A stretch of 64,000 nt of DNA from Ophelia neglecta (taxonomy: Eukaryota): assembly GCA_965285935.1 (NCBI GenBank), contig OZ260667.1, positions 29,574,001 through 29,638,000 on the forward strand, read 5' to 3'. The notes beneath the pieces were generated by a model that did not search any database, had not been told where the DNA came from, and saw nothing but the letters and a program-made list of their open reading frames with translations. Position numbers and translations under genes: made by a program. This document shows, in pieces, positions 37,546 through 64,000 of the stretch (its first letter is position 1; each line of letters begins with the position of its first letter).

Positions 37546-38706
37546 ATAGGGTCATAATCATTTCACCCACGTACTATGCTGACCAGGTCTCTTCAGGGTC
37601 ATATTTCACACACGTACTATGCAGACTGGTATATTCAGGATCATATTTCACACACGTACTATGCAGACTGGTATATTCAGGGTCATATTTCACACACGTA
37701 CTATGCGGACTGGTCTATTCAGGGTCATATTTCACACACGTACTATGCGGACTGGCCTATTCACGGTCATATTTCACACACGTACTATTCGGACTGGTCT
37801 ATTCAGGGTCATATTTCATCCACGTACTATGTTGACCAGGTCTCTTTAGGGTAATATATCATCCACGTACTTTGCGGACAGGTCTATTCAGGGTCATATT
37901 TCACCCGCGAACTATGCGTACTGGTTTATTCAGGGTCATATTTCATCCACGTACTATGCGTACTGGTTTATTCAGGGTCATATTTCATCCACGTACTATG
38001 CGTACTGGTTTATTCAGGGTCATATTTCACACACGTACTAATAACTATGCGTACTGGTTTATTCAGGGTTATATTTCATCCACGTACTATGCTGACCAGG
38101 TCTCTTCAGGGTAATATATCATCCAATATTAAGACGACTGGTCTATTCAGGGTCATATTTCACCCGCGAACTATGCGTACTGGTTTATTCAGGGTTATAT
38201 TTCACACATAAACTAATAACTAGGCGTACTGGTTTATTCAGGTTCATATTTCACACACGTACTAATAACTATGCGTACTGGTTTATTCAGGGTTATATTT
38301 CATCCACGTACTATGCGTACTGGTTTATTCAGGGTCATATTTCATCCACGTACTATGCGGGCCATGTCTATTCAGGATCATATTTCATCCACGTACTATG
38401 CTGGCCATGTCTTTTCAGGATCATATTTCATCCACGTACTATGCGGGCCATGTCTATTCAGGATCATATTTCATTCACGTACTATGCTGGCCATGTCTAT
38501 TCAGGATCATATTTCATCCACGTACTATGCGGGCCATGTCTATTCAGGATCATATTTCATCCACGTACTATGCGGGCCATGTCTATTCAGGATCATATTT
38601 CATTCACGTACTATGCTGGCCATGTCTATTCAGGATCATATTTCATCCACGTACTATGCTGGCCATGTCTTTTCAGGATCATATTTCATCCACGTACCAT
38701 GCTGAC
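37546..38706. repeat. 42/43-bp minisatellite (CAGGGTCATATTTCATCCACGTACTATGCGGACTGGTCTATT), about 27 units in three sub-domains
   Basis: The 42-bp period appears as 14-aa repeats in the ORF track. A 43-bp variant (GCGGGCCATGTCTATT) runs from ~38355 onward. The variant GCTGACCAGGTCTCT recurs at 37578, 37831 and 38091. Confidence 0.95.
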
Positions 38707-39734
38707 TGTGTCTCACTATATACTTATACACATTCTGAGTAGCCTGGGAAAAACTGAGGTCGAAGGTTAAGATATATTTCTACCTCAGCCACTTTAAATG
38801 TATTAATGACCTGAATCAAATCGTGGAAGGCGGTGGACCTCTCATTGCTTATGATCTCACATGTTATCTTGTAAACATTTATTTGTAACTTGCGACACTG
38901 GCTTTTGATAACGTTGGGGAGTGCTTAGTTGAAACTAACGGTCCCTCGTGGATTGGAATGATATGTGTTTTTCTAAAATCATGTACATGTCTGAAATCCT
39001 ATTAGTGTTGTCTGCCAGGTTCACACCCATTCACGCTTGCAAAGTTTGAGGCCTCAAATTTTCACAGATAACCAGAGAATATAACGAATACGGATAATAA
39101 TATAAAATTAAACAAAAGGAAAGTCAATATATATGCAGAATGCGAACTTGCTCTGATATCTAAGTGTTATTGTGATACGTGTAGTTTGCTCTACCCGGAC
39201 ACGACGTATTTGCGTGTAACCCGAATCAGTGTCGTTCGTCAAAGACAGTCTCATATCCTCATCTGCCCATGCGAAAATTGACATCAGTGACACCACACCG
39301 CTGGGGACGAGATTAAATTCATGTCACTCCTGAACTTGACAGGAACTGTCGCCCCTCTGTGTGTTCATGGCTTGCTGGGTATGTGGACACCATACTGCTT
39401 AGATCCAGCCTTAGTTCCTGCTCATAATTCATATGTGGCCTCAGCCAGACGCGCCACGTAGCGCGATTTGAAGTCGTTTTAAAAGCCCCGTTATTTTGCC
39501 ACATAAATTGTTATTCAATATATGGTGTTGTTACGATACTTGTGGTATCATATGGCATGTGTGTGTGGTATTATTAATTTGAGCAAATAAACGAAAAATA
39601 ATGATAATAACTAAAGCAAAGCAGCCAACCGTTCCCACCATACATGCAGCAAATGATTTAAAAATGATCGGTCGAGTACTGTGGGTGTAAAGCTTATATT
39701 AACTAAATGTATAAGTCCGCCATGCCGTCGTGAA

Positions 39735-39790: not shown

Positions 39791-40155
39791 TTAGTAGGTC
39801 ATTCTACAGGTACTCATTTTAACAATTCCCCATACAGATATATGTGTATTCTGTCTACCTATAGAAGGCCAACTAAGAATCAACTGTTGTTAACTGTTGC
39901 TTCCACTTCTTGATAGTATGGTGGAGTCTTCCCCTAAATCGAGCTCATTGCCATAATCACTTTTATTGGATATTCTGTCCACCTCGTTATTAAAAGCAGT
40001 TCGTCTCCATGCTCCAAATGTGATATGAATAGTTACCCTGGATATAATGTTTGAGGCAGAGCAGATTTGTGTGGCAGAATAGCATACCTATCTTTTAATG
40101 TTATCGAAGATGCTGATGAGATATGTGATCTACTGTCTAAGGCACCATCACCAGT

Positions 40156-40436
40156 CGACGAGCATATAAGCCTAGCGACGAGCACATGTAGGCCTACCGA
40201 CGAGCACACATAGGCCTACCAACGAGAACATACACACCTAACGACGAGCACGTATACGCCTACGGCGAGCACATATAAGCCTAACGACGAGCACGTATAC
40301 GCCTACGGCGAGCACATATACTCATACCGACGAGCACGTAAACGCCTACGGCGAGCACATATACGCCTACCGACGGGCAAATATAGGCCTACCGACGAGC
40401 ACATAGAGGCCTACCGATGTGCACATAGAGGCCTGC
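40156..40436. repeat. 21/22-bp minisatellite (CGACGAGCACATATAGGCCTAC) with 43-bp dimer core
   Basis: About 13 units. The dimer CGACGAGCACGTATACGCCTACGGCGAGCACATATA recurs near 40241, 40284 and 40327. Confidence 0.9.
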
Positions 40437-42382
40437 CAGTAAAAATACTTATTGTTGCCATCAGGTGGAGTGTCTTGCCAGTTTTAATAGGCATAGCGCC
40501 TGTCTAATCGTCCTTCTTTGAGAAGTCAGACAGCACGACTTCCATGATATTAACACATCCCTAATCATGATGCCAATGAAAATTTTGGCTTCTTAGTGTT
40601 ACAGTAAGCGGCTTTCATCTTTCTGAAATATGAATCAAAGCCGACCACATCCATCTCCACCCAACTGCTCCCTATATCCCTCTGTAGTATTGCTATTGCG
40701 ATAAATCCTTTATCGTCAAACCATCAAACGTCTTTACAACAAACAAAAACACCTCGTAAAAGGAGGTCAAACCAGGTACGGAGACTCCATTTTAAGTTTC
40801 CTGGTACACAAGTACATTTTGATGAGCAATCTTCAGCTGCCAGAAATTGAAGGTCGCAAGCAAAGTGTTAGGTTTTCGTTACCCACAGGAGGTACATACC
40901 GTAGATATGGTATATGTTTTTTACCGGTGGTGGGAAGACTCCCGTGGCGGCCAAAGCTGTCGTGTGGAGAACCTGGAAATACTGGTATATATAATACCTG
41001 ATAACCTCTCCACTGGATCACGCTGTGCTTTGTGAGAGGCAAATACTCACCGTGGAGGTTTTAATTCAGTTTCTTATTCTGTTGCTGACAAGCTACCCGT
41101 TTATGTTGACTAAACTGCCTTGTTAAAACACACACTACTGAGTTTATTTAGTTAGAGCAGATTAAGATATTATTAGGAGTCAAGGAGACAGGTTTCATTT
41201 CAATGCCGTACCATGAACTGGTCTTTTACAATGTGTGCGCCCTAGCCTCCACCAATGCGTCATTTTTTCTGTCGTCATAACTATGTCTGAAGGCAGACTG
41301 CTCAGTCAGGGGGGGGGGGGGTCATTGTTAAATACGTTTATTCTCGAAGCGTTCGTATCGATTTTCCCTAAACAATATACGGTTTCAAAAAAAGCAATTC
41401 CTGCAAGGTGCGAAAAAGTTGATTAGAAAACCGACCAAACGTCGGCGCCGTGTGTTTGTTTTAAGAAAATCGACAACCACGATTCGACTGCACAAGCACA
41501 ATGTTTTATATTGCTGTCGACCGCTTTAAACAATATAGAGAATAGAGGTTCTTGTTGGAACTGGCATATTTAATCGAATCATGAAACATGCTTTTTGGTG
41601 GTTCACAACGCTGGTTTTAACATGGCCAATGCAGCTGTTTGAAACATCTTACATTCTTGAAAATCAATCAATGCTTTTGCAAACAGATTTGAGGGTAAAA
41701 TGTAAGGTTTTCAATCGCTTTTGTAGTGGTATTTAGTACATTAGCAAATTTAGGAATTTTCCCATACACTGATTGAATCATAAGACAAACGTAATTCCAA
41801 GAGTGATCTAAGTATAGGTCCTTCTAAGGTCATATGGACCACAGTATCGGAGCCGGTGTACCGTGTACAGTTGTTCAATTAGCTACAGTAAGCCAAATTG
41901 CATGTTGAACAATAACCTAGCAATAGCCTAGTCACGTGACTGAAAATGACCCGTACAGGTAATTGTTTAATAAGTATATCAGCTTTTTAATTGCTAAGGT
42001 AAAAACAATGCATAGGCGATAAAAGAACGATTTCTATGATACTCGTTTTGATAGTAATTGGTTTGTGACAATTGATTGATTATAAGACTGACAGATAATG
42101 TATATACCCAATTTCTGAACACTCCATATCAACTCACCACTCGTCATTGACTGAAACCAACAAATAATTAGATCATCGGCCGAAGCCTAAATGCAAATGC
42201 ATGTTTCAAACTTGTTGACATTGGCGGTACAAAGCTAAGGCCAGGGACACGAAAAGATGGCGAAAAACTGGAAGGCCAATTTATCGACATGATTGATGAA
42301 CAGGCAGCGGGGTAATAGGAAAGGCTGAATGTAGCATCATCAACGACAGCATATTGCAATCAAAAGGGCACAGCTAGTGTGT

Positions 42383-42543
42383 NNNNNNNNNNNNNNNNNN
42401 NNNNNNNNNNNNNNNNNNNNNNNNNNNNNNNNNNNNNNNNNNNNNNNNNNNNNNNNNNNNNNNNNNNNNNNNNNNNNNNNNNNNNNNNNNNNNNNNNNNN
42501 NNNNNNNNNNNNNNNNNNNNNNNNNNNNNNNNNNNNNNNNNNN
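42383..42543. other. 161-N assembly gap or masked segment
   Basis: Run of N flanked by GTGTGT on the left and CTCTCTC on the right, suggesting an unresolved or masked (GT)n/(CT)n microsatellite. Confidence 0.95.
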
Positions 42544-45500: not shown

Positions 45501-48500
45501 ATTGCGATGATGCTACACAACATTTGTCGAGCAGTCCGACGAATGTGAACTCCCCTATATGTCACGATACGAGGACAGTGCTCACTTCGTCATCCACTAC
45601 CTCGACCGTGCGTTTGTTCTGTTGCACCATTTTTAATTGTAATCATCCGAAAGTAGGTATAGCCAATTAGTGGCTGTGAATATATAATAAACTACAGTAA
45701 CTGATTTGGATGGTGTCTCAGATGAATTATGAGCATCATAGGAAATGACGCACCGCTATAGCTTAACTCATTTCGAGCAAGTTATAACTGTAGTGGGTTG
45801 AACGCATTTTGCATTTCAAACGTATAACCAACTTAAAGCACATAAGTTCTTTGCAAAGACAACAACTCTGTACAATAAGCTTACAAAATGAAAACCAGGG
45901 TTACTTTACAGATTTAGCCAAGAAGTGAAAAAAGTGTGTATTTAAACGAATAATGCAAATACAAGTCGTTGCTATCATACATTCTTGTTGGCATCTTGCC
46001 TGAAAATAAAACTTGATAGTTGAACGGACATGATAAATTGCTATAGGCTTGTCGGTGAGAAACTTTCAGTTTCAGTTACAGGTTGATTCCCCGTTAAGAT
46101 AACTATGGGCCTGTAGAGGTTTATATGCTTCAGATATCTACATCATGGCAAGTGGCACAAGACAACCTTGGATGGCTATAAATATGTTGAAGGCTAAGGA
46201 CTATGATGATGCTGTGTGACGTGCCGTGAAAAAAAGGACCGGGACAGAGATTACGGAATGACAAAATGACCTCAAGTGCGATACGCCATAACCCACAACA
46301 GGATAGGATAAGAAAAACGAGCTCAGCCGGCCTGGAGACGAGCGCAGGTGGCTTGTATCCATCGACCAAACCACCCGGACATTGTCTGATTACAGGACAT
46401 TAAAACGCGTATACAGGATCAACCAACCTTGTTGGAATAAAGACAAAGCATTGATACGTTTCTTTCTTTTTCAATTAAAAGTGAGAGTAATTATGTAACG
46501 AGAACGGTACACTATTTGCTGATCAGACAGATTACATAATGAAAAAATAATAAGAAGCTCCTCTATTGGTCAATATAAACAATAAAGCAGCTACTATAGT
46601 TGTATCCAGGGCTTAGTATGGGCACTAATATTATAGTATCTTATATGTCATAGGCATTAATATAGTTGTTACTTGCATACATAAAAGCTTGTTGCTGGAT
46701 TCTTATAGCCAATGCTAGCCACAAAGTCAGGTTAGCGTGGGCGAAAAAACTGATATTTTACTAGCGATCATAACAGCGGGTATAATTCATTGCCACCCCG
46801 AGGGCAAACACCATATACATTTAGAACTAGGTCCAAGGTGAACACACAGGATCATTAAATAATGATAAAGGCCTGCGGAAACCGGCCGTGTGCATCATTT
46901 ACGGAGCTAAATCCTGAGTTTACAGGTGGAGCCGCCTTCAGATGGCTGAGGTTCTGACAGGTGCATCTTGAGTGCGTCAACGCAAATCAAGATGTACGTC
47001 GCCGGACGTTGACTATGAAGGCAGATGTCAACAACCAGATTGGGCTATCTGGGTTGACCATAACGTTCTCGTGCGCTAACCAATATAAAATTATAGGGCG
47101 GCCCTTGGGGGATGCCAGCGTTATTTATATAAGCACAAACTCGGTAAGATGGTGCATAGCACAAAGGCCAAAGAGCACCGCCGACCCCATTCTCTCATTC
47201 TCTCCCTCTTATCCCTCTTTGTCTCTAAGTCACTTCTATTTATACGGCGCACTTAGGGCCTCGGCTATAGTGCTATTACCTATTCTTTTCGCCAAAGAGG
47301 ATTTCGTATGCCCCGGAGGTAAACACGCTTCTAAGGAGATTACTGAACCCAGTGAATCTATTTTGGAACACCCATCGGCATTTATGGACACAAAATATTA
47401 TCATCTCTGAGCGTAATGGAGAATGGCACATTAATAGTAATATGCACTCTGTTGATTAGTTGCGAGTAAGTGACCGGGACTTAAATCAATATGTGATTCT
47501 ACTAAGAGTATAACCTGAAGTGGAGAATTTTCTTCCTTTTCGAACTATTATCAAAATAAAGAACCGCTAATAAAATGTTGACCATATATTGTTTAATATA
47601 TGGCAGAAAAAACAGTTTCTTTCAAATTCTTTCTAATAACAGCGACAAAAACTAATGAATATTCTTGATAATTATGGACTCGTTTCATGGCGCATATCGC
47701 ACTGACTGCCACAGAAATGGTAACCTACCGAGCCCCACGACCAACTATTGTGCCTCATTTAGCGGCATGGCTGAAGGCAACCTGGGAGCTAAATGTGATA
47801 GTCGCGGCAATTATTAACAGCTTTCACACCCGGAGTCATAATATAGATTGCAACAATAAACGCCGAGAAATACGAAACCAATTTCTGAGCAATTTTTGAT
47901 TGCGACTATATGGGGCATGACTGTGAATAAGTACGATAATAGCGGTTTGCTAATACAGATTTCAGGATGCATTGGATTGCAGGCTTGTTACACGAATGCA
48001 GGCAACATTGTTGACAGCAGCACGCCCTACTATCACCCGAATGCTCATTTTGTTTGAACTTGGGGCTCAAGATGCAGCTTAATATATTTCACCCACGCAA
48101 TTCCTGCGCTGACCTCGCTTGAGAAGATTTTGTGCAATTGGTTCCATGTCCTTGAAAGTTTAATAGCAAGCTGCCACTCACAACATCGGCCCCCTCTTGT
48201 TATCACTGCCTTATTAAAGCGGTTAATTCTAGAAGCTTTATTTGATGAAAACGTCAGAGACGAGATAAAACATTGAATACATATTTGCATGATACAGTCA
48301 GTCAACACTCCCGAGGCAATGGAGTAAAAAAATCAGAATAGCAAGACACTGTCTTCATCCATCTCTACGCATAAAGATTGGTGGCTTTGATGAAAATTAC
48401 TCTGCCGAAGCGTACGTCTAGCGAGGCTGTTAAATTGGCCCGGCAGCTGTAAAGAACTATTTCAATTGAGCAAAGCGCTTGCTCAGTCAGCAGTCTTGCT

Positions 48501-49888
48501 TGCTCACTGGAGCGTAAGCCCCCTTCATCGCCCAGACAATTGATAGTCTCTTCTCGTCGTGATTTGCTTGTCGTATTTACATTGTTATGAAGGAAATCTT
48601 GCCCTCAAAATTTCTAGGAACCACGTTACCGACAATTATATCTTGTCCACCCAAACCCACCAGGCAAGGGTCTATCCTCATAGTTTCCTCTTGAAGGCAC
48701 ATTTGCCAAAGATGTTGCCTTTATATAAAGACACACATGTACTCCCATTTGTGGCTATTGATGTGCATGAACTGTGTATCAAGGAAACGCTGTTTTAGCG
48801 GCCGTGCACAATTGTGTCATCCTACTGGTAACGCCCCAGTTACTGATAATAATAATTATTAGCCATTTTTCTAACAAGTCGTAGAGATAATGGTATGTTC
48901 CCTTATCTTTCATGGCCGACAAGTCCTAATTTACTGGTTGACAATGCACAGTGCTGTAGTACTAGGCATGTCATGAAAACCGTGGTCCGTTCAAGGTCAG
49001 TTAAACCAAAAAATACAAGACACTGAATACATATAGCATTCCCAGGCAAACAATCAGGATTCGAACACAATGTTTAACACATCATTCTGCCCGAAGTCTT
49101 ACCTTCTAGTCATTGTATAACTAAGAAATGTGAAGCATTTCTATTAACCAGGGCTCCCTATATTTTGGCGTTTTACCGTCGGCACTGCGTTTCGAGAGTA
49201 CAAGACAGTAACCCTACCCTGGCCATCGCCACTTCCGCTTCCAGTACATGCTAAAGCAGCAACGCCAAGCAAACAGCGTATAACACACTGCGCCCAATAT
49301 ACCCTTTAAGCAGCAGGTGGTGCATTCGAATAATGCAGGTGGCTCTCGCGCTCGTGGTAACCACTCATCTTCAATGATAGCAAATATTTAATAGGCCTGA
49401 AATTGACTGTCACTTTTTTGGCATAACTGCAACACGGTTTATGTTTATGAATAAGCAAACTGCTGTACTCAGTTAGGCAGGCTCTTAACTAGCATTCTAG
49501 TTTTTATACTACTACTCTCCGACAATTTTACGAGTTCATAATTCGCTGTAACAAGTTCACCTGATAGATATCATATTGATCGTTATTGTTAAATTATCTA
49601 TTAAGATATGTTTTATACATTAATAATACCGCGAGACAGACCACGTGATACAACAGGCTATACTCAGTAACTCATTGGCGCCTGAAAGCAAGGCTTGGCT
49701 GAAATAAATATTGTCTGGTTGGGAAGTGAATACATCAACTGCATTGCATTTTGAGAAAAACCTCGCGAACCGACACAGGTAAAGGATTTCCGAATAAGGC
49801 AACACAGTAGTTGAATTGTGTCATTGGCAAAATAACGCACTCAACAAGTACTTTTTAAGATAGATCTAATGTCAATGAGCTCAGAAAA

Positions 49889-49901
49889 TGCCATCTAGCG
49901 G
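49889..49901 (-). promoter_or_regulatory. CTCF-like motif
   Basis: Minus strand CCGCTAGATGGCA. Motif match only. Confidence 0.35.
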
Positions 49902-50804
49902 TTCGCCCATAGATTATTTCCTTCTCTCGATAGCAATATTGGGCTAAGTCTTCTAGAAATTAAGCACGATGTACCCCTGTAATGCCATCACTGCGATATA
50001 ATTCAGCAAATTGGACTCGTGCCCAACGGATGCTCTTTGTGCTCGGTCTAAGAGGTCGATAAACGACAAATAAAACGCCTCCGCATTCATAGAATCAAAA
50101 TATCACCATGGCACGTTATTTTTATTGATATCGGATTTTACAGACTCGCAAATATATAGGTTGTTCATACTTCAATGTTTTGACATTTGCTTGCATTTAA
50201 TCTTTATTACAGCTTTATACTATATCAGATTTATCACTTTGAATCATAAGGTAAATTATAACATTAATTTGTGATGTTTTTAAAATCAATAATTAGAACA
50301 CGTTACAAATAATGTCACGACCATATTCGTAATTAACTTTAATAAAACGTCTTTTATGGGCTTAGAAAGGATATTACCAGCTGAGTTGATGAAGATGTTA
50401 AAATGTCTTTGATAGTTATACCTTTACCTTTCGGTGACGAGTTTGCGTGAGTCCGCCACTTGCCATATCAAGGCGCGCCAGTGCCTTACCAAAAAAGACA
50501 CAAACGTCACGTTACAGGAACAAAAAACAGTCCGGCTGTGTCTTTCACGTTCATTGCTGGCTGGGTAAGGTCGGGTAATTTTGCGCATCACCTAATTCCG
50601 CGCAGTAAGTAGCTTTGATCACGTCAGTAAAGGGAAGTGACTGCAAAGTCTTTACAAACCTTAATTTTTGAAAAATGACCTTGAAATCCGTAAATAAATC
50701 GCGAAAAAGAGATAATGATGTTAATTGGCACCGGACCTTTACTTATAAATTAATTATAAAAAATGTTAAATGTTGGGACAAGCTCACCGTTTACCTGTAA
50801 GATA

Positions 50805-50822
50805 TGGTCGCTAGATGGCGCG
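50805..50822 (+). promoter_or_regulatory. CTCF-like motif
   Basis: TGGTCGCTAGATGGCGCG. Motif match only. Confidence 0.4.
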
Positions 50823-52640
50823 TGGTAACATGAGCTTAAAACTTCCTTCCGCCAAATGTCAGGATCCCTCTGCCGAGAACTCCCTGGGGTGTTTATCAAT
50901 TTTATTCTGCAAGTTGCGCAATGTTTTTCATGGCAAATAAGCCAATTTATATGCAGTGCCAGGAAGGGAAATGCATCTATGAGTTGGTTCTGTGGCAGAA
51001 CTTAAGAAGCGCTTAGAGAGCGAAGACGAACGCAGCCTCACGCGACTGGCAGGCATTACGGTAGTCTATCTCACAACGGTGAATGGGTTCAGCCAGCACA
51101 CTATCAGGTACCTTCATCTAATTGAAATTAGTATTTGGCCCATTTTACCTTTACATTATCAGTTTTTCTATCTTTCAGCGTGGTATATTACACAGATATC
51201 TTACGTTCTGCGGTCTTAAGTTAAGTTAGACTAAAGCATATTGGTAGGTGGGAAGTCTGACCCCTCTCGGGAGAACGCATCGTGGGAACACTGGACTGTC
51301 TCGGGACAACTCGTCGACGGCGTCAGTGATGTAGATGTGGAGAACCATCAGACCCTGCACGCTGGCCAGGTCCTCCAAATACCACCTGTCTATTGTCACG
51401 GAGGGCACTTCGAGATGTATTTTTGTTGGTGTGAAACAAGATATCTAACCCCTCTAATCAGAAAAGCAATTGTATCTAACCACCATACTGGTACAGATTC
51501 CCATATGGCAAAACATACCATAATACCATAGTCCTTCGCAGACAGGCTTTTCTCCCCTTCAGGTGGTGTTTTTAATATTTTGTTTCAATCGATTTTTTTA
51601 GTTGAACACTGTTCCAGTCGGTGGTCCCTTGTATATATTGACAGAAAAAAATACCTTTAATCACCGTTCCATCAATGTCTAAAGCGCTGTCTCCTACTTA
51701 TAGGCCCATATGATTTTAATGGGTTTGGAAGGATATCTTGTGGTGCAATTATGATCTCGAGTGAATTTGCATTATTAAAATTTTTAACATACTACCTTGT
51801 TTGAGTATTCGGAATCCATGCAGATGTGCAGACGGAAGAGCTTGTTTAAAAAAGCATTAAATCGTTATGGATTCCACCTCAAACCCCCTGGAAAGCAAGA
51901 AGTTGGTAACGCTATCCTTCTCGAAAGGATTAAAGCCTCCGGCTCTCAATTTTACATCAATTTCCTACCAAGGAAGGTTCACTCAGGAAGGAAGTTAAGT
52001 GAATGAATCAATGGCTGCAGTGTGTAACTGGGACGACCGGCTGTTGTGAACTGTCGAAGGCGGGGAGAGGAAGACGAGCCAGCAAAACTAGGCAAAATCT
52101 CATTTGCTGGGCGGTGCAATATTTAACAGTCACAATACAAACCTACGCATTATCCTGACTGGATAAGATACCTGCAGTATACATCTAATATGAGAAAATG
52201 ATTGTTTTCGTTCAGGCATCAAAGACTATAAACTGCGTCTAGCCGGCTAAGGAAATATGTTACGTATGTCCACGTAAATAATAAATGACGCTCAGCAGAT
52301 CGGTACCAACTCATGACTGCATTGGTGGAGGCTGGAGGCTGGACCTCCCTTTGTGTTCAGTTGTATTTTTTGTCAGAATCAAACACTCATGATCGCCCTC
52401 CAACAGTACCCAAACCAAAACGACTGCAAAAACAATCTGCAACTGACCATCTAGAACAAAGCACAAGGAAGGCGGGGGGGGGGGGGGATTAAAATCTCAC
52501 CGGAAACAAGTTTTTAAATGCTTTTAGCAGGCATCCAATAACAGTATTATTTCAAGTGTTAACTCCATTTTCTATCCATTTCGAACATTATTGATTGCAA
52601 GGATGAGTTAACCATTTGACTTAGCGGAAACATGTTTTGT

Positions 52641-52901
52641 TGTTTGGGGTTTTTACGTGGCTTTCAACACTTATAGGTCATATCGCCACAGTGCCTACTT
52701 GTGACAGTGGATAGTGGGCTCAATGCCCTCTTTAGAGTGCTGCCTCACTGGAGTACCTGCCGTAGACACCAGACAGGGATCCCCACCCAGTCACATTATA
52801 CTGACACCGGGTTGACCAGTCCTAATACTACCCCCGAAATGCCAGGCGCCTGGCAGGGGAGCTATCAGTACCTATTTTTACATCTTAGGCTTGACTAGAT
52901 C
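52641..52901 (-). mobile_element. 5'-truncated SINE with Meta-domain-like core and 14-bp TSD
   Basis: Exact TSD GAAACATGTTTTGT at 52627-52640 and 52902-52915. The core GTGCTGCCTCACTGG...CCACCCAGTCACATTATACTGACACCGGG..GACCAGTCC resembles lophotrochozoan MetaSINE cores (recalled, not searched). The minus-strand 3' end TGTTGAAAGCCACGTAAAAACCCCAAACAACAAA is a LINE-like tail. The tRNA head is missing. Confidence 0.8.
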
Positions 52902-55900
52902 GAAACATGTTTTGTATTTGACTTGGAGCAGAACCCTCAGTGTACTTATTTAGAACAAACCACAACACTTTTCTCTCGAATGATGACCTATTTTCAAACA
53001 GATCCAAAAGTACGATTTTTTTTGTTCAAATATATTTTATCAGCATGATTGCTTATTGAAATTAAAGGTCTTATTAACCATGGGGAAAATGGGTGATTTT
53101 TCAAACCCCAATTTGTAATCTGAAAACTGAAAAGGTACTACGATGAATATAAAGGTTGTAAAAGAATAAATAAAAAAACTTAAATTAATCTCTGAAATGT
53201 GAACAAGATAAAAACCTCACTCTCATGAAATGGTCATTAAATATATGGACCATTCTTGAGTATTTTCCATGAACATTTAGAATATATTTTCCGCCCTCCA
53301 CGCCCGCCACTACCCTTCGAACTGCACACCCCGCTGGTCCAATACTCCCTGATAAGTGTGTTAAGTGCTAACTAGTGTGACTCCCTTGGGTTTATGCCAC
53401 AGGAAGGCCAGTGGTTTATTGAAGGGTTGTTGGTAAACATAAGTAGTACTTGATCTAACCTGTTTGTGACATCTAGGATAACTCGGCTAATGACTACTTA
53501 GCTTCGAGAACGAGTAGAGAGCATCTTTCCCTGTCCATACTTAAATGTCGTCTGCGACATACAACATGGACGTTGGGGACACTTTTAACCACTCGGTAGT
53601 ACTGTGCAAAGAGTAGATTTGAGCACTCCATCGCCTGCAACGTATTTCATGATCAATTTTCAAGGACTCTGAAGGAACCGAAAAGCTTTGTACTAATACT
53701 CTCAACATAAAGCAGGCCTATGTAATTATGATGCACTGAGTGTGTTTCGTTACTGCACGAAATCCCAAGTCGGTGTTGACAAACTTGATTATACAATGTA
53801 CCTATTGCCAACGTTAGACTCCTCAAATAAGGTACATCAATATTTAATATGTTAAACCTAACACTGTGTTGACTGAATAAAGTGCTGAGGTCTGTATGAG
53901 TACGGAGCTCAAAGCACAATCTCGAGAAAGATGAACTAGTAGATCTGACATCGTAGTCTAGGTTGATTTGAACGATGAAATTGGTGAATTCAGCTTAGTA
54001 TTTTTTATTAAGACAATTTGTGTGATAAAACCATCAATCATACACTTCATATATTTCAACAGTGCTATAATAGGAGGTAATGTCTCATTGTGTGTTAATA
54101 AAAACAGCTTTATAACCAAGCCGTGAGTGTACAGGGAATCAGTTCAGTGAGATCAACGTATTTCACCTTTCAGTTCTGGAAACAAACTTACCCTTGTTGT
54201 AAATTATCATGATCGGAAAACCAGACCTAGTCGACGAAATAAACTGGTCCCGTACCATCCGCGCAATGAGCGTTCTACAATATCTTTTTAACATTTAGCC
54301 GCACTTCATTGGAACAGTTTCGCCGGGGAATTTGAGAAATCCCGAAAACATATTCTACAATTGGGTTGCAAAAGCATGCATTTAATGTAAAGATTAATGG
54401 TTTATAACAATCAAGCTGTGTTGGCGTAAATTTGAAAAGTGTCATTGTTGACTTTTGCTGCTTAAAATGTGGTTCTTATTTAATAACAATATTTTTCATT
54501 CTAGTCTGCGTATGAACCATATTACGATGTGTAGCTTTTTTATGAGCTCCTTTGAAGAACAGCATGGCTGAAAGGGCTAACTACGATTTAAATGTAAATT
54601 CGTTACTTGATGAATAAATAACTACATAAATACATGAAACAACTGTTTCAAGCCATGTAACAGAATATATTACGCTACTCCCTTTGACAAACAACCTCCT
54701 CCCGTAGATTTTCTTTCCTACAAACACACACACAAACATACAGGTTGCTGCATGTAATCTCCGAAAGTCAATCGCATATAACAAAAATTGATTTATATCC
54801 ACGATTTTTCTCTTTGGGACTGAAACCGAGATGCTGGGTTAGGCGCAAAACGCGGGTCTAACTCAAACAGGAACTGGCATGAAACGCTAAAGTTAACCTA
54901 AGTGTGCCAAACTCGACAGCCCCTCGGTGTTATTAACTTAACTTCTCCAATGAAGACAGTGACAGGAGATAAGTTATATGCAGTCAATGCCATTTAAGTC
55001 TTTTGCCAATGGAGTGTATCTGTACGGAAGATAAAGACTCGGATTATTTCTGGATGATAAGATAATGGCTGGGGACATACTTAGGATTTATTTTGTTCTT
55101 ATGGAAGACTATGCATTAAGAAAAATCACCCAACTTCCAAGGCTTGAGAAGGTGACCATGCCCTTGAAACATGCCGGGGTTTACAGGTTGTGTAATATGA
55201 TCAACCGGAGTACCATCGTTGTATCATTAAAGCTAAAAAACAATTGCGGTGAAGGGGGGGGGGGAATACCATCTGATTTGGTATTAATCTTCATGGGGAT
55301 GCTAGACTGCCAGCCCAAAATCATTATTAGAACATGATCAATGCATTTTCAGGAGGCCCCGAGTAAAACCAAATATATTGCAATGCATCGTTAAACACAA
55401 CGGCACCTTTTAAACAAAAACATTATCATAGCAATATCAAACGCCACATCCGATTGACCAAGCCAAAACAATTGAGCTCTATCGAACAAGGTACCTATAA
55501 AATTAACCTATAGGTCTACACAAGTGACGCTTCAAAATTCGATTTTCTACTAAAGATATGCATTGGTTATTTAAATATCTTGGAAAAGAAGTGTTGGTGA
55601 ATCAAATAGACCTATTTATGCTCATTACACCAAATGTTTTATGTACAGCAAACTTTGATCAGGAGAAGACCGAAATGTTATCCTTTTACCTCAAACGATG
55701 ATGAAGGCGTCATTAGCATGAATTGACAAATGTCCGTATATTTAGGAGTACCATTGGAACCTGCGACATCTCCTTAAAAGCAGCTAAATACCGCTGTGTC
55801 TAGTCTTGATAAATTACCAAATCACAGTGTTACTGATTAGCTTGAATCAGAATAAACTTCCTTTTAGAGCAAAATAAACATTATTGAGAACAGTTAGAAG

Positions 55901-56847
55901 AGTGTGAACATAGTTCACGAAAACAGGAGGCAACAAAGAAACATGAATACAAAGTGGCCTATTGGAATGACAAGAATTACTACAGGCCGCTGCAATCAGC
56001 TATCCATTATTTAAACATTCTTTCAAACCAATCGATCGAGTATCAACCCATTAACTAAAAAGGGAGAGTGTTTGGTATAGTCAAGGCCGTGGTAACTGTG
56101 GTGGAAAATCACCTAGCTATATGGCTTTATTTGCGAGGAAGGTTACGAGGGGACTGGGCCCAGATTGGCCATTTGCCCCACAAAACGACGCATCCCTCGA
56201 GCCCACAGCAGGGCGAAAAGCATAAATTGTTATCTGCCTAACTACAATCAGCCACAGCGGCTATCGCTCTGCTGCCATAACGGGCATTAACTGCGTCAAC
56301 GAGACCCGGGAGAAATTACGTGACAGCTGTCTTTGTTTCTGTGAACCCCAATAGAGGTCATATGATGAAAAAGGAAAGTGGGAATTAGCCAAAAAAGTAT
56401 TTCTATGAATACTAGACGAGGCGCAAATCAGTGACCCAATTTGCTCACAGAGATAAACCAGAAGAGTCAATATTGACCCACATTGCTCAACTGAGGCATA
56501 GCCTATTAGCTTTATAGCTGTTGCACTATAGACTGAGTGAATTAATCATATAATTTACGACCCATCAATTAAATTTGTTTATATGATGCCAAACCGAATA
56601 AACTAGAGGAGTTGTCTAGTTTGATTGAATGGCGAATTTAATAAACACGTCTGGTGTCATTTGAGCAATACTAGTGGCTGCCTGCAAATGCCACATTTAT
56701 GTTGCCATTCATGCAGAGAACATCTGCGCCACAAACTGAACGCTTACATTAAACAATAGATCAATACTTTGTTTAGTTTTTAGTCAATCTCACGCTTTCA
56801 TCCAGATGAGGTTCTTTCAAATAAGGCAAGAACCATCTGATATCCAG

Positions 56848-57656
56848 TGGGCGCCCGTTAGCAGTATCGTCTTAAAGCTGGACTGGACAGGACTCGTGGA
56901 CTCATGGACTAATCATAAAACAAACCAACACAAGATATAATAATGTGGAAGAGAAGCTAATATTAAGTGAAGTTTTTTATGGCCAAGGCCTAGGCCAGTC
57001 TGTTTGAAGTGGCACCCCTCTCCCAAGGAAAATTGGCCTAAACAGGTCTCCATTCATGGGGAAAAGCTGGAAGTTGATACATATGCAATTTATCACATAA
57101 CTCGTCGGTATGCAGTTGGTCATGGGCAATTATTGAAAGGAAACAAAACATGTTTACAAATTTGGAGCACAAATTTATTACGTAATTGTTTATTTAAGGA
57201 AATGACGGCCGTTTAGACACAATTGCCCACCATCGGTGAGCATGCTGTACATGACCAATGCTGAATGGTGTGAATATGTGAATGGTCGGATTGAGATGCT
57301 AAAATATATCAAAAGCATGGTGTACAAATGAAGGTCCGGAGATGACCGGGCATGAAATTTGTTTGTACATAGTTGGGGGGGGGGGGGGGGGGGAGCGGGA
57401 CGGGGGCGGGCGGTGCCAGAAAAATTGAGAGTGAATTAACCAGTGTCACGTTTGCACTGTCTGCTTAGGCAAGCTAAACTGACAAGGCCTCCTCTCTACT
57501 CAGCTGACGCTGGTAAGGGTAGAGCCCAACCTCAAATTTATTAGACTTGTAAATCACAGCGTTCAGATTTGCCGAAGTCGCCGAGGGTCAGCGCCACGAT
57601 GTTTAGTAACTCCGGTTTTTGTGGTCAGCAACCTTGACTCCCAATGATAGGACCAT
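56848..57656 (+). repeat. left long inverted repeat
   Basis: Starts GGGCGCCCGTT..GTATCGTCTTAAAGCTGGACTGGAC..GTGGACTCATGGACT and ends ..ATAGGACCAT. Reverse complement of 60885-61662. Confidence 0.9.
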
Positions 57657-58411
57657 GACTGATGAAATACCCAAACACATTGAACATGAAAGGCCCGAAC
57701 TGATAGCTGTGACTTCTCACACCAGTAAACTTTATTTTGCTCATTGACTTAAAAAAGATGATACTTTTATGCCTCTCCCGCAAAGAATAGTTGTATAGTA
57801 AACCGCATCCAAGTATTAGACACTGCAGTGACCGCCATTAAACACTAATTGTTAGTGAAAGGACCAATATTTAAGGTTGTGAAATTTATTCCCAGTTTTA
57901 CTCAGACTGCCTTTTGGTTAACATCGCTCTTCAGTTATCACACTTGAGTTAAACAACGGACTCCTGGTAAAATTGTTTGGATTGTTGTATCATTCTTTCC
58001 CTTTGTTTGTATATAATTCTATAGAATTGTTCTAAACATCATTAGGACTACTTTGGTGTTGTCCGAACCAATTATTTCGAAAAATATAGTTTATTGTATC
58101 AATAAAGTAATTTCTATTATTGTGTTATTATTCAAAACTCTTTGAAACATCACCTTGTAATTCTCCAGTATGTTTTGTATGCTATATGCCATCTAGATGA
58201 CTGCATGTTATTTTGGAACGCTCTGTAGTGGTCAGCTGCAGTGAAATTTGTAACCAGCTGTAGACACTTATAAGGCATATGTTAATGATCACATGATCAT
58301 GTTCAGCCAAGTGTGCCAGACATAGTCTGGGTTGGTCCTTTTCAGCCTGACCCTCCAGAGAGAAGGTAGTACATTTTGCCCACCTCCTCCCCTGCTCCAC
58401 CTGTCTTGTAA

Positions 58412-58526
58412 TTTTGTTTCGACATTTCTGAGGACATATTGTTCTAGTTTAATTTATATTAATTTGCATTTTTGTTTCGACATTTCTGATGACATATTAT
58501 TCTAGTTTAATTTATATTGATTTGCA
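58412..58526. repeat. 58-bp tandem duplication
   Basis: TTTTGTTTCGACATTTCTGA(G/T)GACATATT(G/A)TTCTAGTTTAATTTATATT(A/G)ATTTGCA at 58412 and 58470. Confidence 0.9.
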
Positions 58527-59231
58527 AGTGCATGTATGTTGTTCAAAACACTATTATCTACTCATTTGCAGTAAAATTGTGCATTTATTAATGTTCTTCT
58601 GTAAATGATATTACCAATACTCTTATGTGGTGGGTAAGTTCCCCCACCTTTGTGAATTAAAGACTTGTTATATTTCCAATATAACCATATTCAACACAGT
58701 CACGGCTTTGTTTTCATTCACAAATGTAACTGCGTCGCTCGGTAACACATAGGAATAGAAAAAATATTACCGTGGGATGGAAAATAAAAAAAGCAGTCAT
58801 GAAGCGCTTTGCACAAGCAAGTGAGAAAATAGATCCAATGTCCAATGTCTCGGGGTAAGTTAGAAATAAAACCATATAGGTCTATTTTCACTTTGATGCC
58901 AAATAATACACGCAGCCATGGCCGATTGAACTATGTTGCCATGCAACAATGAGGTTGTGTATTGTGTAATATATGCCATGAAAACTAATTGCATATAATT
59001 TAAGCTACAACCAGGTTTTATATTGGGTACACATCATAGGCTACGAACAGCAATTTGTTTTTAAATAGATCATTTCTAGTCACTTTATTGCTGTACAAAT
59101 AGGAAACTAGTTCTAATGCAGCTAGTAGGCATCATTTATATCATGATTGTAAGCTATTTCAATCCGTATTATTGACAACACACATATTTCAAGTATACAA
59201 AAGGTGACTTCTGATTATACCTTGGCTCATA

Positions 59232-59656
59232 AGGTTGGTAAAGGTGGCTGTGCCCACTGATAGCCACTGTATTTTACCTACTGTCCTTCACTGCTCTATT
59301 GTCACTGACAACTTGACTAGCGTGTAGCAGAGCATCCCGAATGAAGTGAAAGAAAAAAAAAATACTATGTGGAATTCTCTGGCGATGACAACCATGTCCT
59401 TCAAGAGATATGTGTCTGGTTAGAAGACATATGGTACCACCTTCCGTCTGTCGATTTGTCTGACCGTCCTTTGTAACACACTTGCCATTAAGCACCTGAC
59501 CGTCCTTTGTAACACACTTGCCATTAACATCACAGTGGTAGAGATAGTGAAAGAGCGTGTCAGAGAAACCAACTTGCTGCCAATACAGGGAAAAATGGAG
59601 GTGAAAAAAGGATCTGGATAATGAAAAGGGGTGACAACTATAATACCCTGTTAGTA
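59232..59656 (+). pseudogene. disrupted OTU-family cysteine protease (deubiquitinase-like) domain
   Basis: Manual frame-stitched translation: RLVKVAVPTDSHCILPTVLHCSIVTDNLTSV*QSIPNEVKEKK^YYVEFSGDDNHVLQEICVWLEDIWYHLPSVDL^LTVLCNTLAINITVVEIVKERVRETNLLPIQGKMEVK^RIWIMKRGDNYNTLLV. It follows the OTU pattern VPxDGxC..., Y..F, DL...L.N.L.I.I.V, I...GxHY..L. Lesions: TAG at 59325, frameshifts near 59362, 59459 and 59608, and an in-frame 36-bp duplication at 59460-59527. Confidence 0.65.
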
Positions 59657-60184
59657 GGGCAATTTCGACCCTGAAAGAAAGGCTGATGGTAAGATTGTTC
59701 ATATACATGTACATAATAATTTCTTCTTTACAAATACATGGTATAGGCCTAATCCTGCTTGCCTTAGAGGTATTAAATGATTTGGATCGGTAAAACCATA
59801 AGCTATATGGTGGGTACAGGAGAGCAACAAGCGTGGAGTCCTGCAATAAAAAAAAATTATACAAGAAAAGCATATTTGTTTAACAATTCTGAAGATTGAC
59901 AGCGGTAGCGCAAGCAGCCCAAACAAAAAGGATGGTGTTCACACTCGGGGAGTACAGACAAGGAGTCACCAGTATAGAGGGCACTGTTTCCATCAAGCCT
60001 CGTGAGTCCAACCTCTTTTCAATGAATTAAACTAATATGGTGTTTTCTACCTTGCACTAAAGAATGGTTTAGAATGTTGAGCAAGTAATACATGTATCTG
60101 CCTGAGCAAGGAAGACAACTCAAAGTCAGACCAAATAACTGTAGATTATAAAAGCTCATTTAACAAAACGATCTTTTTCAACAG

Positions 60185-60343
60185 GAAAATTATGACCAAG
60201 TGACCGACGCGAGTGAGAATCAAGAAGACGCTATTGCCTTGTCCAGTCCAGATAATGAGGATGATGCATCAAGCCTTACGGGGCACGAAATACTGTCAAG
60301 TTCAGATGAACGTTCTGATCAATCAAATATCAGTGCAATTTAA
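60185..60343 (+). pseudogene. candidate terminal exon (acidic/Ser-rich tail) of the element's OTU gene
   Basis: TTTTTCAACAG acceptor ending at 60184, then an open frame ENYDQVTDASENQEDAIALSSPDNEDDASSLTGHEILSSSDERSDQSNISAI-TAA. Upstream donors GTAAG (59689) and GTGAGT (60002), AATAAA at 60634. Phases do not join cleanly. Confidence 0.35.
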
Positions 60344-60884
60344 TGTTACGATAATATGAAATCTCTGCCGATTTTAGAAGCATCTGATGCAGTACTATTT
60401 AGTTTAAACATTTGCAATCATTACTAGAATCAAAGAAATAATTTCTTTGTTCAACTGTCCCTACTTTTATTTTCAAAAAGGCTGCATTTCTTGTCAGCGC
60501 CTACCAGGTCATTATAAATATTTACACTGACGGCTGGGTGTGTGGAAAAAAGGGGATATGAAAAGGTGTAAAGTGTAGGAAAGAATTATTATAGTAATCC
60601 TCAGATACATAACCAACTTTAAAATATGGTTGCAATAAATCATATCGACTGAAACGTTACAGTTTTGATCACAAACCTAATGACGATCTTCATATAATAC
60701 ATGTCATGCTCTCGGATCAATATGAACAGCAGTTAGTTAATATCTTTGGGAAAATATTACTTTCTACTTGGAGACAGACAGGTAATGGTTAAACCACACG
60801 GTTATTCATAAAAATACTGTGCTATATAAAGGACACAAGGCCCCACAATGTTAAAAATAAAGTCAGTAAAGGAAAGTACAAATT

Positions 60885-61662
60885 ATGGTCCTATTATTGA
60901 GAGTCAATGATGCTGGCCATAAAACCTGAGTTACTCAACATCGTGGCGCTGACCTTTAGAGACTTCCCCAAATCTGAACAATTTGTACTATGTCACAGGT
61001 CCAATAAATTTGAGGTTGGGCTCTACCCTTACCAGGGTCAGCTGAGTAGAGAGGAGGCCTTGTCAGTTTAGCTTCCCTAATCAGACAGTGCAAGCGTGTC
61101 GCTAATTAATTAACTCTCAATTTTTCTGGCACCGCCCGCCCCCGCCCCCCAGCCCCCACAACTATGTACAAACAAATCCTCATGCACAGACACCCCCGAA
61201 ATTTCATTTGAACACCTTGCTTCTGATACAATTTAGCATCTGAATCTGACCATTCACTTAGTCCAGCAATGGTCATGTACAGCAAGTTTACCGATGGTTG
61301 TCCATTTAGTCTAAACAGGCGTCATTTCTCTTTTAATACAACTATATTATAAATAATATTATAATAGCCCATGGCTTATGCATACAACGAGTATTGCGTT
61401 AAACTAGCATCTTTACCCACCACTAGCTTTCCCTCGACAATGGAGACTTGTTTAGGCCCACTTCCCTGGGAAAAGGGGTGCCACTTGAAACAGACTAGCC
61501 TAGGCTTGTCTTCGGCCTGGGCCATAAAACACTTCAATTCGCTTTTATTCCTGATCATAATATCAAGTGTTGCTTTGTTTTATAATCATTCAAGAGTCCA
61601 TGAGTCCACGGGTCCTTGAGTCCAGTCCAGTCCGGTTATTAGACCATACCAACGGCACCCCA
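60885..61662 (-). repeat. right long inverted repeat
   Basis: Starts ATGGTCCTAT on the plus strand and ends AGTCCATGAGTCCAC..GTCCAGTCCAGTCCGGTTATTAGACCATACCAACGGCACCCCA. Confidence 0.9.
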
Positions 61663-61699
61663 TAGTCCGAATTAAGTTTCCTGCCTTCCAAACTACAGC

Positions 61700-62660
61700 A
61701 CATAGTTTTTCCCCGTATAATGTTGCACGCCAAACAATTCGCTGTCAACAGCCTGGGCTAAATCAGCCTTAAGCATGTCATTAAAGAGTAATCCAAATCC
61801 AAAACCTGCTTTGACCTGGTAAAATCTATTTGTCTTTTTCGTTTACACAGTTTCATCTCTTTTCATTACAAAAGTTTCAAATACGTTCAGAAAGAACCGT
61901 CATATTTATAAAATGACCACAAACAATCTACAAAAGAATGTCCAACACTGGTCACAAACAAATGAGCATTCGGCGGTAATTTGAGACTTATACCCTTTCA
62001 TTTATCTTTTTAAGATAATCACCTAGACATTTTCAACATCTCTCAGTTCAGTTCCTGTGCCATTTAACGATGTTTAGTGACCCTCTATATACGAAGTACA
62101 TGTCAGAGGGTTTAGATCGATCCCCAGGTACTCCATATCTAAATGACTTTTATCCGAAATGCATATAGGCCTTCAACGATTATTGCACACAGTTTCCTAT
62201 CAGATATTTATTTTTGGAAAATAAATGTTTTCTAGCAACACCATGCATCTCCAAGTCGAATGTGTTAAACTCATTTATTCGAACACGAGACACCGGTCTC
62301 CAAGCACACTCTTTCTAATAGAAGTTTTCGATTTAATCAACGCGGGCTGTAGCAGTAGAATGGACTGTCGAGGCCTTAAACCACATTGGTTTGTGATCCG
62401 TAGGCTAGGTTGTTTTTTACCGACAAATGTAAACAATACCCATCATTCATTTCTATCGAAAAACTTCAATGCATTTGCAGAACTGATATATTTCTATGTG
62501 TCCCGAGTGCCTCCTTCTTTAAGAATATTTTTGGCACATTTCTACTCTTAGGGGATATCCTCAGACACGAAAGGAAAGTTTAAAATAGTCTTAGGGGATG
62601 GGCCAATGTGCAAGCCCTTCAGGTCCGGAAGCAGGAATCTTATCTCTCCCACTATTAAGA
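61700..62660 (-). mobile_element. highly decayed CR1/L2-type LINE reverse-transcriptase fragment
   Basis: Minus-strand remnants in the expected order: NQCGLRP (62392-62372, cf. NQxGFRP), then GVP-(x)G-SI*TL (62134-62106, cf. GVPQGSILGP). Many stops and frameshifts. Boundaries approximate. Confidence 0.6.
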
Positions 62661-64000
62661 AAAACAAACCAATTTCAATTACACTTCGGCATTATTTTCA
62701 CTTTAATAGGTACTCATTTATGAAGATAAATGATAATACCATAAGATAGCTTGTACCTTTTTTTTTACCTAAACGTATCGTATGTTTGAGCATTCAATTG
62801 ACATTAAATCATATCATGCTATTTACACATATCATACTCATAGATTACATATTGCATTGTGTGCATTTTCCTTGCCCCTTTTGCTATAAAATAAAACCAT
62901 CACGTCAATGTTCTGTTATAGCAAAACCTATCCCACAACAACATCACACGCTGTAACTTGGTAACCTATATTTCATAATTAACTTTCAACTTAGTTTAAG
63001 AAAAAAAATATCAAAGGGTCCTTAAGACAGGGACCGGATAAGAGTCTCCGGGGAAGCACACCGCAAAATGACATGAAACCCTTGACCAATATGAAATAGA
63101 TTGGGTTATAACGAGTGGCTACGGGCAAGTGTTCTCAGGTGGATTGGCTTGAAAGCATTAAAATTGGGATGAACGGACCCACTAACGTTACAAGATTGTC
63201 CAGCCTCCTTGTCCAGTTAAAGATTATCCTCATATATAATCATATTTAATGTTTACTACATTAGCACTTTGTTTCCATTCAGTTGACAAAACAGCCACTA
63301 AAGATGCACTTCTGAAAACCTTATTATTGTAAAGCTTTGTCCGAAGAATTAGCTTTCAATACAAAAAGACCTATCATTTTATCCTAATATATATTGATGG
63401 TCAGTTTGTGGGAACTTCTGGTCTTCCTTGCGAGCAATTCAATTCACTCCTCTCCTCATTGTCTAACTAGAATATACTGGCAACAACAAAAAAATCACAA
63501 GAGGCCATGAAAACACCGTTTCATAACAGGGTCTAAACAATGCTCTAAGAAAAATCTCTCAGCACTGCCTAGGAGAGCTCTACGTGCTGTTAAATACATT
63601 AGGAACGGTAGTGAATTGGTACAGAAGTCCATCGTCTCTCAGATGTCATACATTTGTTGATTAAACAAAAACCAGTAAAGACCTGATGCATCATCTTGAA
63701 CTCTGGGTCCACTGAATACTTGTCTGTTTCTACCGGGGTCTGTATACTTCACTGCCACATGCTGATATAATTTGCGGCTAAAGAACTCGGTAAACACATT
63801 TCGTAAATCATATTATCATTTGATAAGGTAAGAAAGAAAACACAGTTCTTCACATAATGAACATCGAGGTTGTCACTCGTGGACTGCCTCCCCGTTTGTC
63901 GACCTACTTTGCTTGCTCACTCCGGGTGGGGAGTGAGGTGACCTGCCACCTGTCACAGGTCCTTACTGCTCTTTAGAATCCACATAGGTTTGACATCTGT

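What the first reader, a model, noticed from the sequence alone, without database searches (positions are those of the whole stretch)
56848..61662. Long-TIR (~810 bp) element carrying a hidden OTU deubiquitinase-like pseudogene and no visible transposase
Seen in sequence: two ~810-bp inverted repeats with GGACT sub-repeats at their outer ends enclose 3.2 kb. Inside, a frameshifted plus-strand frame at 59232-59656 reconstructs an OTU-like domain, with DxxC (D at 59259, C at 59268) and a C-terminal GDNY where the catalytic His would be (AAC is one change from CAC). Splice-like signals and an acidic last exon follow. Established knowledge: OTU or Ulp1 protease domains are carried by some Ginger, Helentron, MULE/Rehavkus and Zisupton elements. 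However, Ginger TIRs are shorter with TGT ends and Helentrons lack long TIRs. Inference: this is the fossil of a long-TIR DNA transposon family encoding or having captured a spliced OTU gene, possibly one that modulated host ubiquitin signalling or silencing. I cannot place it in a known superfamily.
Basis: partly seen in the sequence, partly recalled or inferred. Interest (0 to 1): 0.75.

Follow-up and report, generated by a model that had tools for sequence, protein, structure and literature searches.

The report
Decayed long-inverted-repeat transposon with protease-like relic
This is an old, broken jumping-DNA element with unusually long mirror-image ends around the remains of a spliced gene that looks like a ubiquitin-removing enzyme, but no database search confirmed that identity or placed the element in a family.

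Summary
The inverted repeats are real. Arms 56845-57656 and 60885-61665 match at 629 of 746 ungapped columns (84%, 27 gaps) and have no other copy in the window. They enclose 3.2 kb and read TG...CA at 56848/61662. No target-site duplication was found.

The interior probably held a plus-strand spliced gene. It has the most acidic stop-free 50-residue stretch in the window (0 of 200 simulations match it), plus four good splice donors, which is weak evidence.

The OTU call is plausible but unproven. Three OTU-type motifs occur in order only here (0 of 300 simulations), but I wrote the patterns after seeing the sequence. Pfam, PDB, three homolog searches, the representatives search and the Atlas gave no OTU hit. 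No transposase was detected.

Best reading: a dead, non-autonomous foldback-type DNA transposon carrying an OTU-like gene (about 0.5). It fails the Ginger1 and Helitron/Helentron end tests. MULE, Academ and Polinton membership cannot be settled from one decayed copy. Long-TIR foldback elements and transposon-borne OTUs are each known; ten literature searches did not show the two together.

The parts
56848..57656 (+). Left terminal inverted repeat (outer edge uncertain, 56845-56849; reads TGGGC from 56848)
56879..56912 (+). GGACT/GGACA sub-repeats (5- and 8-nt spacing) near the left end; candidate transposase-binding sites (inference)
57655..57747 (+). ATG exactly at the inner edge of the left arm, opening a 30-codon frame; possible first exon, unverified
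58307..58365 (+). Possible short exon holding the window's only W-x-G-P-F motif (58328); AG/GT edges picked by eye
58753..58854 (+). Possible exon ending at the joint-best donor of the interior (GG|GTAAGT, 58855)
59194..59688 (+). Probable exon with the OTU-like relic. Motifs at 59250 (Asp/Cys loop), 59502 and 59612 (His position occupied by Asn). Broken by a stop at 59325, frame changes near 59353-59362, 59455 and 59605-59612, and a 36-nt tandem duplication at 59460-59527
   Evidence: no database support
60185..60325 (+). Acidic last exon candidate after a TTTTTCAACAG acceptor, ending at a stop
60885..61662 (-). Right terminal inverted repeat (outer edge uncertain, 61661-61665)
61595..61644 (-). 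GGACT sub-repeats plus a 15-mer that is shared with the 37-bp minisatellite at 10425-11443

Best explanation
One old, dead, non-autonomous cut-and-paste DNA transposon of foldback-like build (about 4.8 kb, about 0.8-kb TIRs with short outer sub-repeats) that carried a plus-strand, intron-containing gene with an OTU-type cysteine-protease domain and an acidic tail. Shown: the arms, the sub-repeats, no detectable transposase, and lesions in the gene. Strongly indicated: a coding last exon. Inferred: (1) the element was moved in trans by a transposase that bound the GGACT repeats; (2) a promoter in the left arm drove the gene (ATG at the arm's inner edge); (3) the protein removed ubiquitin or a ubiquitin-like tag, most simply from the element's own transposase or from silencing chromatin at the element, and so favoured transposition; (4) the gene is either the C-terminal remnant of a transposase-OTU fusion that lost its DDE core, or a stand-alone accessory gene; (5) it was intact at insertion and has decayed neutrally since.
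For: Both arms share both boundaries, with no other copy in 64 kb. Ends read TG...CA and sub-repeats sit at the outer ends. The arms lack conserved hairpins or their own terminal repeats. Acidic exon: 0 of 200 simulations. Candidate exons are 41-44% GC and candidate introns 32-33% (boundaries chosen by eye). Three candidate exons join in compatible phase (post hoc). The OTU-type three-motif chain is unique on both strands, 0 of 300 simulations (post hoc patterns recalled from memory). The frame-2 piece scores protein-like in the Atlas (recognition 2894; 9 in 100 shuffles reach 2300). Arm divergence predicts about 7 indels in 430 nt; 3-4 frame changes, one duplication and one stop are seen. Transposons do carry OTU and spliced genes (PMC2836005; PMC11417382).
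Against: No OTU hit in Pfam for 8 of 8 frame readings or 2 of 2 read-throughs. 0 hits in 3 of 3 homolog searches and 2 of 2 PDB searches. The representatives search gave 1 hit, an unrelated DUF642 repeat protein. The Atlas's nearest clusters were short TIR-domain-like or unnamed proteins, not OTU. The catalytic His is absent. No TSD: the best exact flank repeat is 3 nt, which 273 of 300 random boundary grids reach. The outermost 15 nt of the two arms differ at several positions. Only one copy was seen.
Confidence: 0.5

Rival explanations
1. The long-TIR element is real, but the interior is some other gene relic or captured host DNA (Pack-MULE-like), and the OTU is a pattern read across frameshifts.
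For: All database tests were negative. Loose DxxC...[HN][YF] pairs are common (84 sites). The reading needs three frame changes. Foldback middles are often variable and non-coding (PMC4079207 passages), and MULEs take up host DNA (PMC6446971).
Against: The ordered strict chain occurs only here. The searches used fragments of 38-91 aa from a decayed copy and have low power.
Confidence: 0.25
2. The two arms are independent insertions of an 0.8-kb repeat (HINE-like, solo-LTR-like or MITE) in opposite orientation. They happen to flank an unrelated relic, such as a fragment of a Ginger1 or Helentron OTU gene.
For: No TSD around the whole. Each arm read inner-to-outer runs TGG...CCA like an LTR. Each arm has a 5-nt flank repeat. 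The arms are fairly diverged (K2P 0.176). OTU is best known from Helentrons and Ginger1.
Against: The two 5-nt repeats put the inner end 3 nt out of register between the arms, and 48 of 300 random grids give 5 nt or more. The TG...CA reading has no matching flanks. There are no hairpins or short subterminal repeats as HINEs have. The only two copies in 64 kb lie 3.2 kb apart, and the gene-like features are confined between them.
Confidence: 0.15
3. An internally deleted Polinton/Maverick (long TIRs; vOTU inside the polymerase) or a DIRS-type retroelement (inverted terminal repeats, no TSD).
For: Polinton pPolB carries a vOTU domain (PMC11161782). Long TIRs in Polintons and missing TSDs in DIRS are recalled, not from a call.
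Against: No polymerase, integrase, capsid, RT or recombinase remnant in Pfam. No 6-bp TSD (length from PMC10045372). No internal complementary region (scores 22-28 vs null means 24-28). The gene appears spliced and ends in an acidic exon rather than running into a polymerase.
Confidence: 0.07

Closest known systems
Foldback-type elements (Drosophila FB, Tetris, Galileo; sea-urchin TU elements), mostly MULE superfamily
   Same: Very long TIRs with sub-repeats towards the outer end, a middle segment, no transposase (PMC4079207 passages). Long TIRs and uptake of extra ORFs in MULEs (PMC6446971 passages).
   Different: Only 4-5 short GGACT units rather than a long tandem outer domain. No 8-11 bp TSD found. 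The arms exceed the 14-500 bp of that MULE survey, though Tetris arms reach 1735 bp. The middle appears to be a spliced protease-like gene; the MULE survey has no mention of OTU. TU details are recalled; only the citation was seen.
Ginger1 DNA transposons
   Same: TG...CA ends, OTU domain, GT-AG introns, 2.6-7 kb length (PMC2836005 passages). A W-x-G-P-F motif lies upstream of the OTU-like part, as GPY/F does in Ginger1.
   Different: TIR about 800 bp vs 40-270 bp. Ends TGGGC/TGGGG vs TGTNR. Flanks CCAG/TAGT vs a CCGG/CCGT duplication. No integrase core detected, and the W-x-G-P-F lacks recognisable GPY/F-domain context.
Helentron / HLE2 and HINEs
   Same: Carry OTU genes and short microsatellite-like repeats near an end.
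   Different: They have 12-16 nt (sub)terminal repeats, a 3' stem-loop and T|T insertion. None of these is found here, and there is no RepHel.
Polinton/Maverick
   Same: OTU-fold domain; long TIRs (recalled).
   Different: Their vOTU sits inside pPolB. No 6-bp TSD and no viral genes here.
Academ (AcademX/AcademH)
   Same: A 3-nt flank pair CAG/TAG with one mismatch would fit the 3-4 bp TSD of AcademX (lengths). Long TIRs and YR ends are recalled.
   Different: The 3-nt match is at chance level. No Academ gene remnant. The primary paper was not available, and an OTU in Academ was not found in the searches.

Membership tests
TIR (cut-and-paste) DNA transposon | Terminal inverted repeats | tested here: met
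   629 of 746 ungapped columns; score 630 vs max 31 for 93 random pairs
TIR (cut-and-paste) DNA transposon | Target-site duplication | tested here: inconclusive
   Best exact repeat 3 nt, reached by 273 of 300 random grids; old copy, so decay is possible
TIR (cut-and-paste) DNA transposon | Dispersed copies with the same ends | not testable with these tools
   No other copy in 64 kb; no eukaryotic genome or repeat library on hand
MULE/foldback | Long TIRs with sub-repeats | tested here: met
   only 4-5 short units
MULE/foldback | 8-11 bp TSD | tested here: inconclusive
   None with at most 1-2 mismatches at in-register ends
MULE/foldback | MULE DDE transposase | tested here: not met
   No Pfam hit in six frames; expected for a non-autonomous copy
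Ginger1 | TIR 40-270 bp | tested here: not met
   About 780-810 bp vs PMC2836005
Ginger1 | TGTNR ends and CCGG/CCGT TSD | tested here: not met
   TGGGC and TGGGG; flanks CCAG and TAGT
Ginger1 | Gypsy-like integrase with GPY/F motif | tested here: inconclusive
   No rve hit. One W-x-G-P-F at 58328, chance rate 0.17 per 64-kb strand
Helitron/Helentron | 3' stem-loop, short subTIRs, A|T or T|T insertion | tested here: not met
   4 of 4 arm ends fold no better than shuffles, z -0.74 to 1.70; no shared short IR near the arm ends
Polinton | pPolB, integrase and capsid genes; 6-bp TSD | tested here: not met
DIRS | Internal complementary region; RT and tyrosine recombinase (features recalled) | tested here: not met
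Academ | 3-4 bp (AcademX) or 9-10 bp (AcademH) TSD | tested here: inconclusive
   CAG/TAG, one mismatch, chance level
OTU protease | Match to an OTU profile (PF02338) | tested here: not met
   partial pieces only, low power
OTU protease | Catalytic Cys in a D-x-x-C loop | tested here: met
   59259 and 59268
OTU protease | Catalytic His | tested here: not met
   Asn at 59636; Cys-His dyad for OTU per PMC10318531 and PMC11161782 passages
OTU protease | OTU fold and deubiquitinase activity | not testable with these tools
   No intact frame or alignment to fold; no structure job was sent

The most novel reading that the evidence does not exclude
A so far unclassified lineage of long-TIR DNA transposons whose elements carry a separate, spliced OTU deubiquitinase gene with an acidic tail as an accessory counter-silencing or transposase-stabilising factor, an animal counterpart of the VANC anti-silencing protein of plant VANDAL MULEs. 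Its terminal binding motif would also have seeded a minisatellite elsewhere in the genome.
Probability: 0.15. Interest if true: 0.7.

Novelty: new variant of a known kind. Interest (0 to 1): 0.4.

Why it matters
Several unrelated mobile elements (Ginger1, Helitron/Helentron, Polinton) carry OTU proteases and Mutators carry Ulp1, but in the passages read their role in transposition is only suggested or hypothesised. A foldback-type element with an OTU gene and no fused transposase would add another independent capture. If intact copies exist, it would give a clean way to ask whether transposon deubiquitinases act on host silencing. As it stands it is one dead copy with an unconfirmed domain call, useful mainly as a probe for finding the family.

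Tried and rejected
Protein searches on the OTU-like region:
- Pfam on six interior frames and two sub-frames: only Slowpoke_C at E 0.41.
- Pfam on two partial read-throughs: only Adeno_E3_CR1 at E 0.12.
- Homolog searches with stop-free pieces 59345-59473 and 59493-59618: 1 and 2 candidates, none at E<=10.
- Representatives search with 59345-59473: one hit at E 1.6e-4, 28% identity summed over 4 repeats of a DUF642 protein; rejected as spurious. Its cluster could not be looked up.
- PDB sequences: 0 hits for 2 pieces.
- Atlas on 59345-59473: short TIR-domain-like or unnamed clusters at 0.90-0.91, a level that 4-10% of shuffles reach. The Atlas holds no result for the frame with the Cys loop.
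- An alignment of two frames was out of register and was not used.

Other tests:
- The 201-codon minus-strand ORF (59274-59879) was rejected as a gene: 12 of 200 simulations have one as long, 0 of 68 candidates scored, Atlas recognition 1110.
- My first motif script had a mis-spaced pattern and found no chain; it was corrected.
- Rfam: 0 matches in the window.
- Hairpin, ICR and TSD tests were negative or at chance.
- Pfam of the flanks 47901-57700 and 60801-64000: 0 families. Bases 1-47900 were not scanned against Pfam.
- Paper search for the terminal motifs: 7 unrelated papers by listing.
- Viral and metagenome contig collections stayed unchecked. The prokaryotic collections were not searched, being irrelevant to a eukaryotic repeat.
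Full report
Setting. The window is 34-45% GC per kb, has few long ORFs, several minisatellites and no Rfam match. It reads as non-coding eukaryotic DNA, probably animal (inference). The host was not determined. Pfam found nothing in 47901-57700 or 60801-64000; bases 1-47900 were not scanned.

The arms. A local alignment joins 56878-57656 to the reverse complement of 60885-61630 with 606 of 716 ungapped columns identical. Weaker similarity runs out to about 56845 and 61665. Over the full arms (812 and 781 nt), 629 of 746 ungapped columns match, K2P distance is 0.176 and there are 27 gap events. The alignment scores 630 against at most 31 for 93 random pairs, and nhmmer finds no third copy of an arm or of the interior in the window (next best E 1.8 or worse). 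GGACT occurs 4 and 5 times in the outer 120 nt, where about 0.1 is expected. No target duplication stands out: the best exact flank repeat is 3 nt, which 273 of 300 random boundary grids reach. The four arm ends fold no better than shuffles, the arms have no short terminal repeats of their own in common, and the interior has no region complementary to the ends.

A gene inside. The best independent sign of coding DNA is the acidic stretch near 60170-60322. Its net charge of -14 in 50 stop-free residues is twice the next best in the window, and 0 of 200 simulated windows reach it (maximum 11). It follows a good acceptor at 60184. Four strong donors lie on the plus strand and none on the minus strand, with about two expected on each, which is weak. 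Candidate exons are 41-44% GC and candidate introns 32-33%, but I drew the boundaries by eye, and 20% of windows are as GC-rich as the OTU-like exon. Candidate exons at 58307-58365, 58753-58854 and 59194-59688 join in compatible phase; this is post hoc. An ATG sits exactly at the inner edge of the left arm. The 201-codon minus-strand ORF over this region is not a gene by any test.

Is it an OTU? The region is broken by a stop at 59325, frame changes near 59353-59362, 59455 and 59605-59612, and a 36-nt duplication. Arm divergence predicts about 7 indels in 430 nt, so this load fits a gene that was intact at insertion and decayed with the arms. Three OTU-type patterns (Asp/Cys loop, helix-strand, His strand; recalled from memory) occur in order and spacing only at 59250, 59502 and 59612, and in 0 of 300 simulations. 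I loosened the patterns after seeing the sequence, so this overstates the case. The loose DxxC...[HN][YF] pair occurs at 84 sites in the window.

Against the OTU call, every database test was negative. Pfam: 8 of 8 frame readings and 2 of 2 partial read-throughs. Homolog searches on two pieces. PDB on two pieces. The representatives search returned one unrelated repeat protein, and the Atlas gave TIR-like fragments at near-chance level, although the piece scored as protein-like. These queries were 38-91 residues of a decayed copy, apart from the longer single-frame readings, so a divergent OTU could be missed. The full domain was never scored against a profile. I put the OTU identity at about 0.6.

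How it most likely worked. Shown: long inverted arms with outer sub-repeats around a broken plus-strand gene, and no detectable transposase. Inferred: a transposase supplied in trans bound the GGACT repeats and cut the element out; the left arm promoted transcription inward, as MULE TIRs do (PMC6446971 passages); and the product removed ubiquitin-like tags from the transposase or from silencing chromatin. The Ginger paper notes that OTU and Ulp1 hydrolyse ubiquitin or SUMO and that a role for Ulp1 in transposition has been suggested. This copy is dead: the His position holds Asn and the frame is broken. Overall confidence is 0.5. The rivals are a non-OTU interior (0.25), two independent insertions (0.15) and a Polinton or DIRS remnant (0.07).

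Comparison with known kinds. It works like a foldback-type non-autonomous element (PMC4079207 passages), most of which are thought to be MULEs, but the 8-11 bp TSD was not found and that MULE survey does not mention OTU. It fails Ginger1 on TIR length, terminal motif and TSD, although TG...CA ends, introns and a W-x-G-P-F at 58328 (chance rate 0.17 per 64-kb strand) keep a Ginger1-type source for the gene open. It fails Helitron/Helentron on end structure. Polintons carry vOTU inside their polymerase and make 6-bp TSDs; neither is seen. Academ could not be assessed beyond TSD lengths, because the primary paper was not held. Repbase classes non-autonomous elements by ends and TSD, which one decayed copy cannot supply.

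What I saw of the literature. Passages only of PMC2836005, PMC11417382, PMC4455052, PMC6431247, PMC6446971, PMC4079207, PMC10045372, PMC11161782, PMC4067079 and PMC10318531. For PMC2836005 I also saw the supplement list; its two FASTA files could not be read. All other papers were seen as search listings. Ten searches showed no paper on a long-TIR element with a stand-alone OTU gene. The library lacks most subscription journals and Repbase Reports, where such a family may already be described.

Verdict. A real, old long-TIR element with a probable spliced gene relic. The OTU identity is plausible and unconfirmed, and the superfamily is unplaced. New variant of a known kind; interest 0.4.

Noticed in passing
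window 10425-11443 and 61630-61644: The 37-bp minisatellite contains the same 15-mer as the outer end of the right arm (21 hits with up to 2 mismatches in the array, 6 of them exact; shuffles mean 0.05). The left arm has a decayed version. This suggests a shared binding motif, or a satellite grown from a related element's end, as described for Tetris.
   Followed up: partly
window 37476-38795: Minisatellite of 42/43/49-bp units, about 27 copies; the source of the window's longest ORFs.
   Followed up: no
window 40142-40460: 22/43-bp minisatellite, about 13 copies.
   Followed up: no
window 58406-58526: 58-bp tandem duplication (91% identical) inside the element's interior, in a candidate intron.
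   Followed up: no
window 59274-59879 (minus strand): 201-codon stop-free frame antisense to the OTU-like exon, the longest outside tandem arrays; chance in 12 of 200 simulations, no homologs.
   Followed up: yes
window 58328-58342: The window's only W-x-G-P-F motif, resembling the GPY/F signature of Ginger1/Gypsy integrases, without the usual surrounding residues.
   Followed up: partly
window 57376-57394: G run of about 19 nt in the left arm; the right arm has a shorter, interrupted C run at the matching place.
   Followed up: no
window 42383-42543: Assembly gap of 161 N, well away from the element.
   Followed up: no
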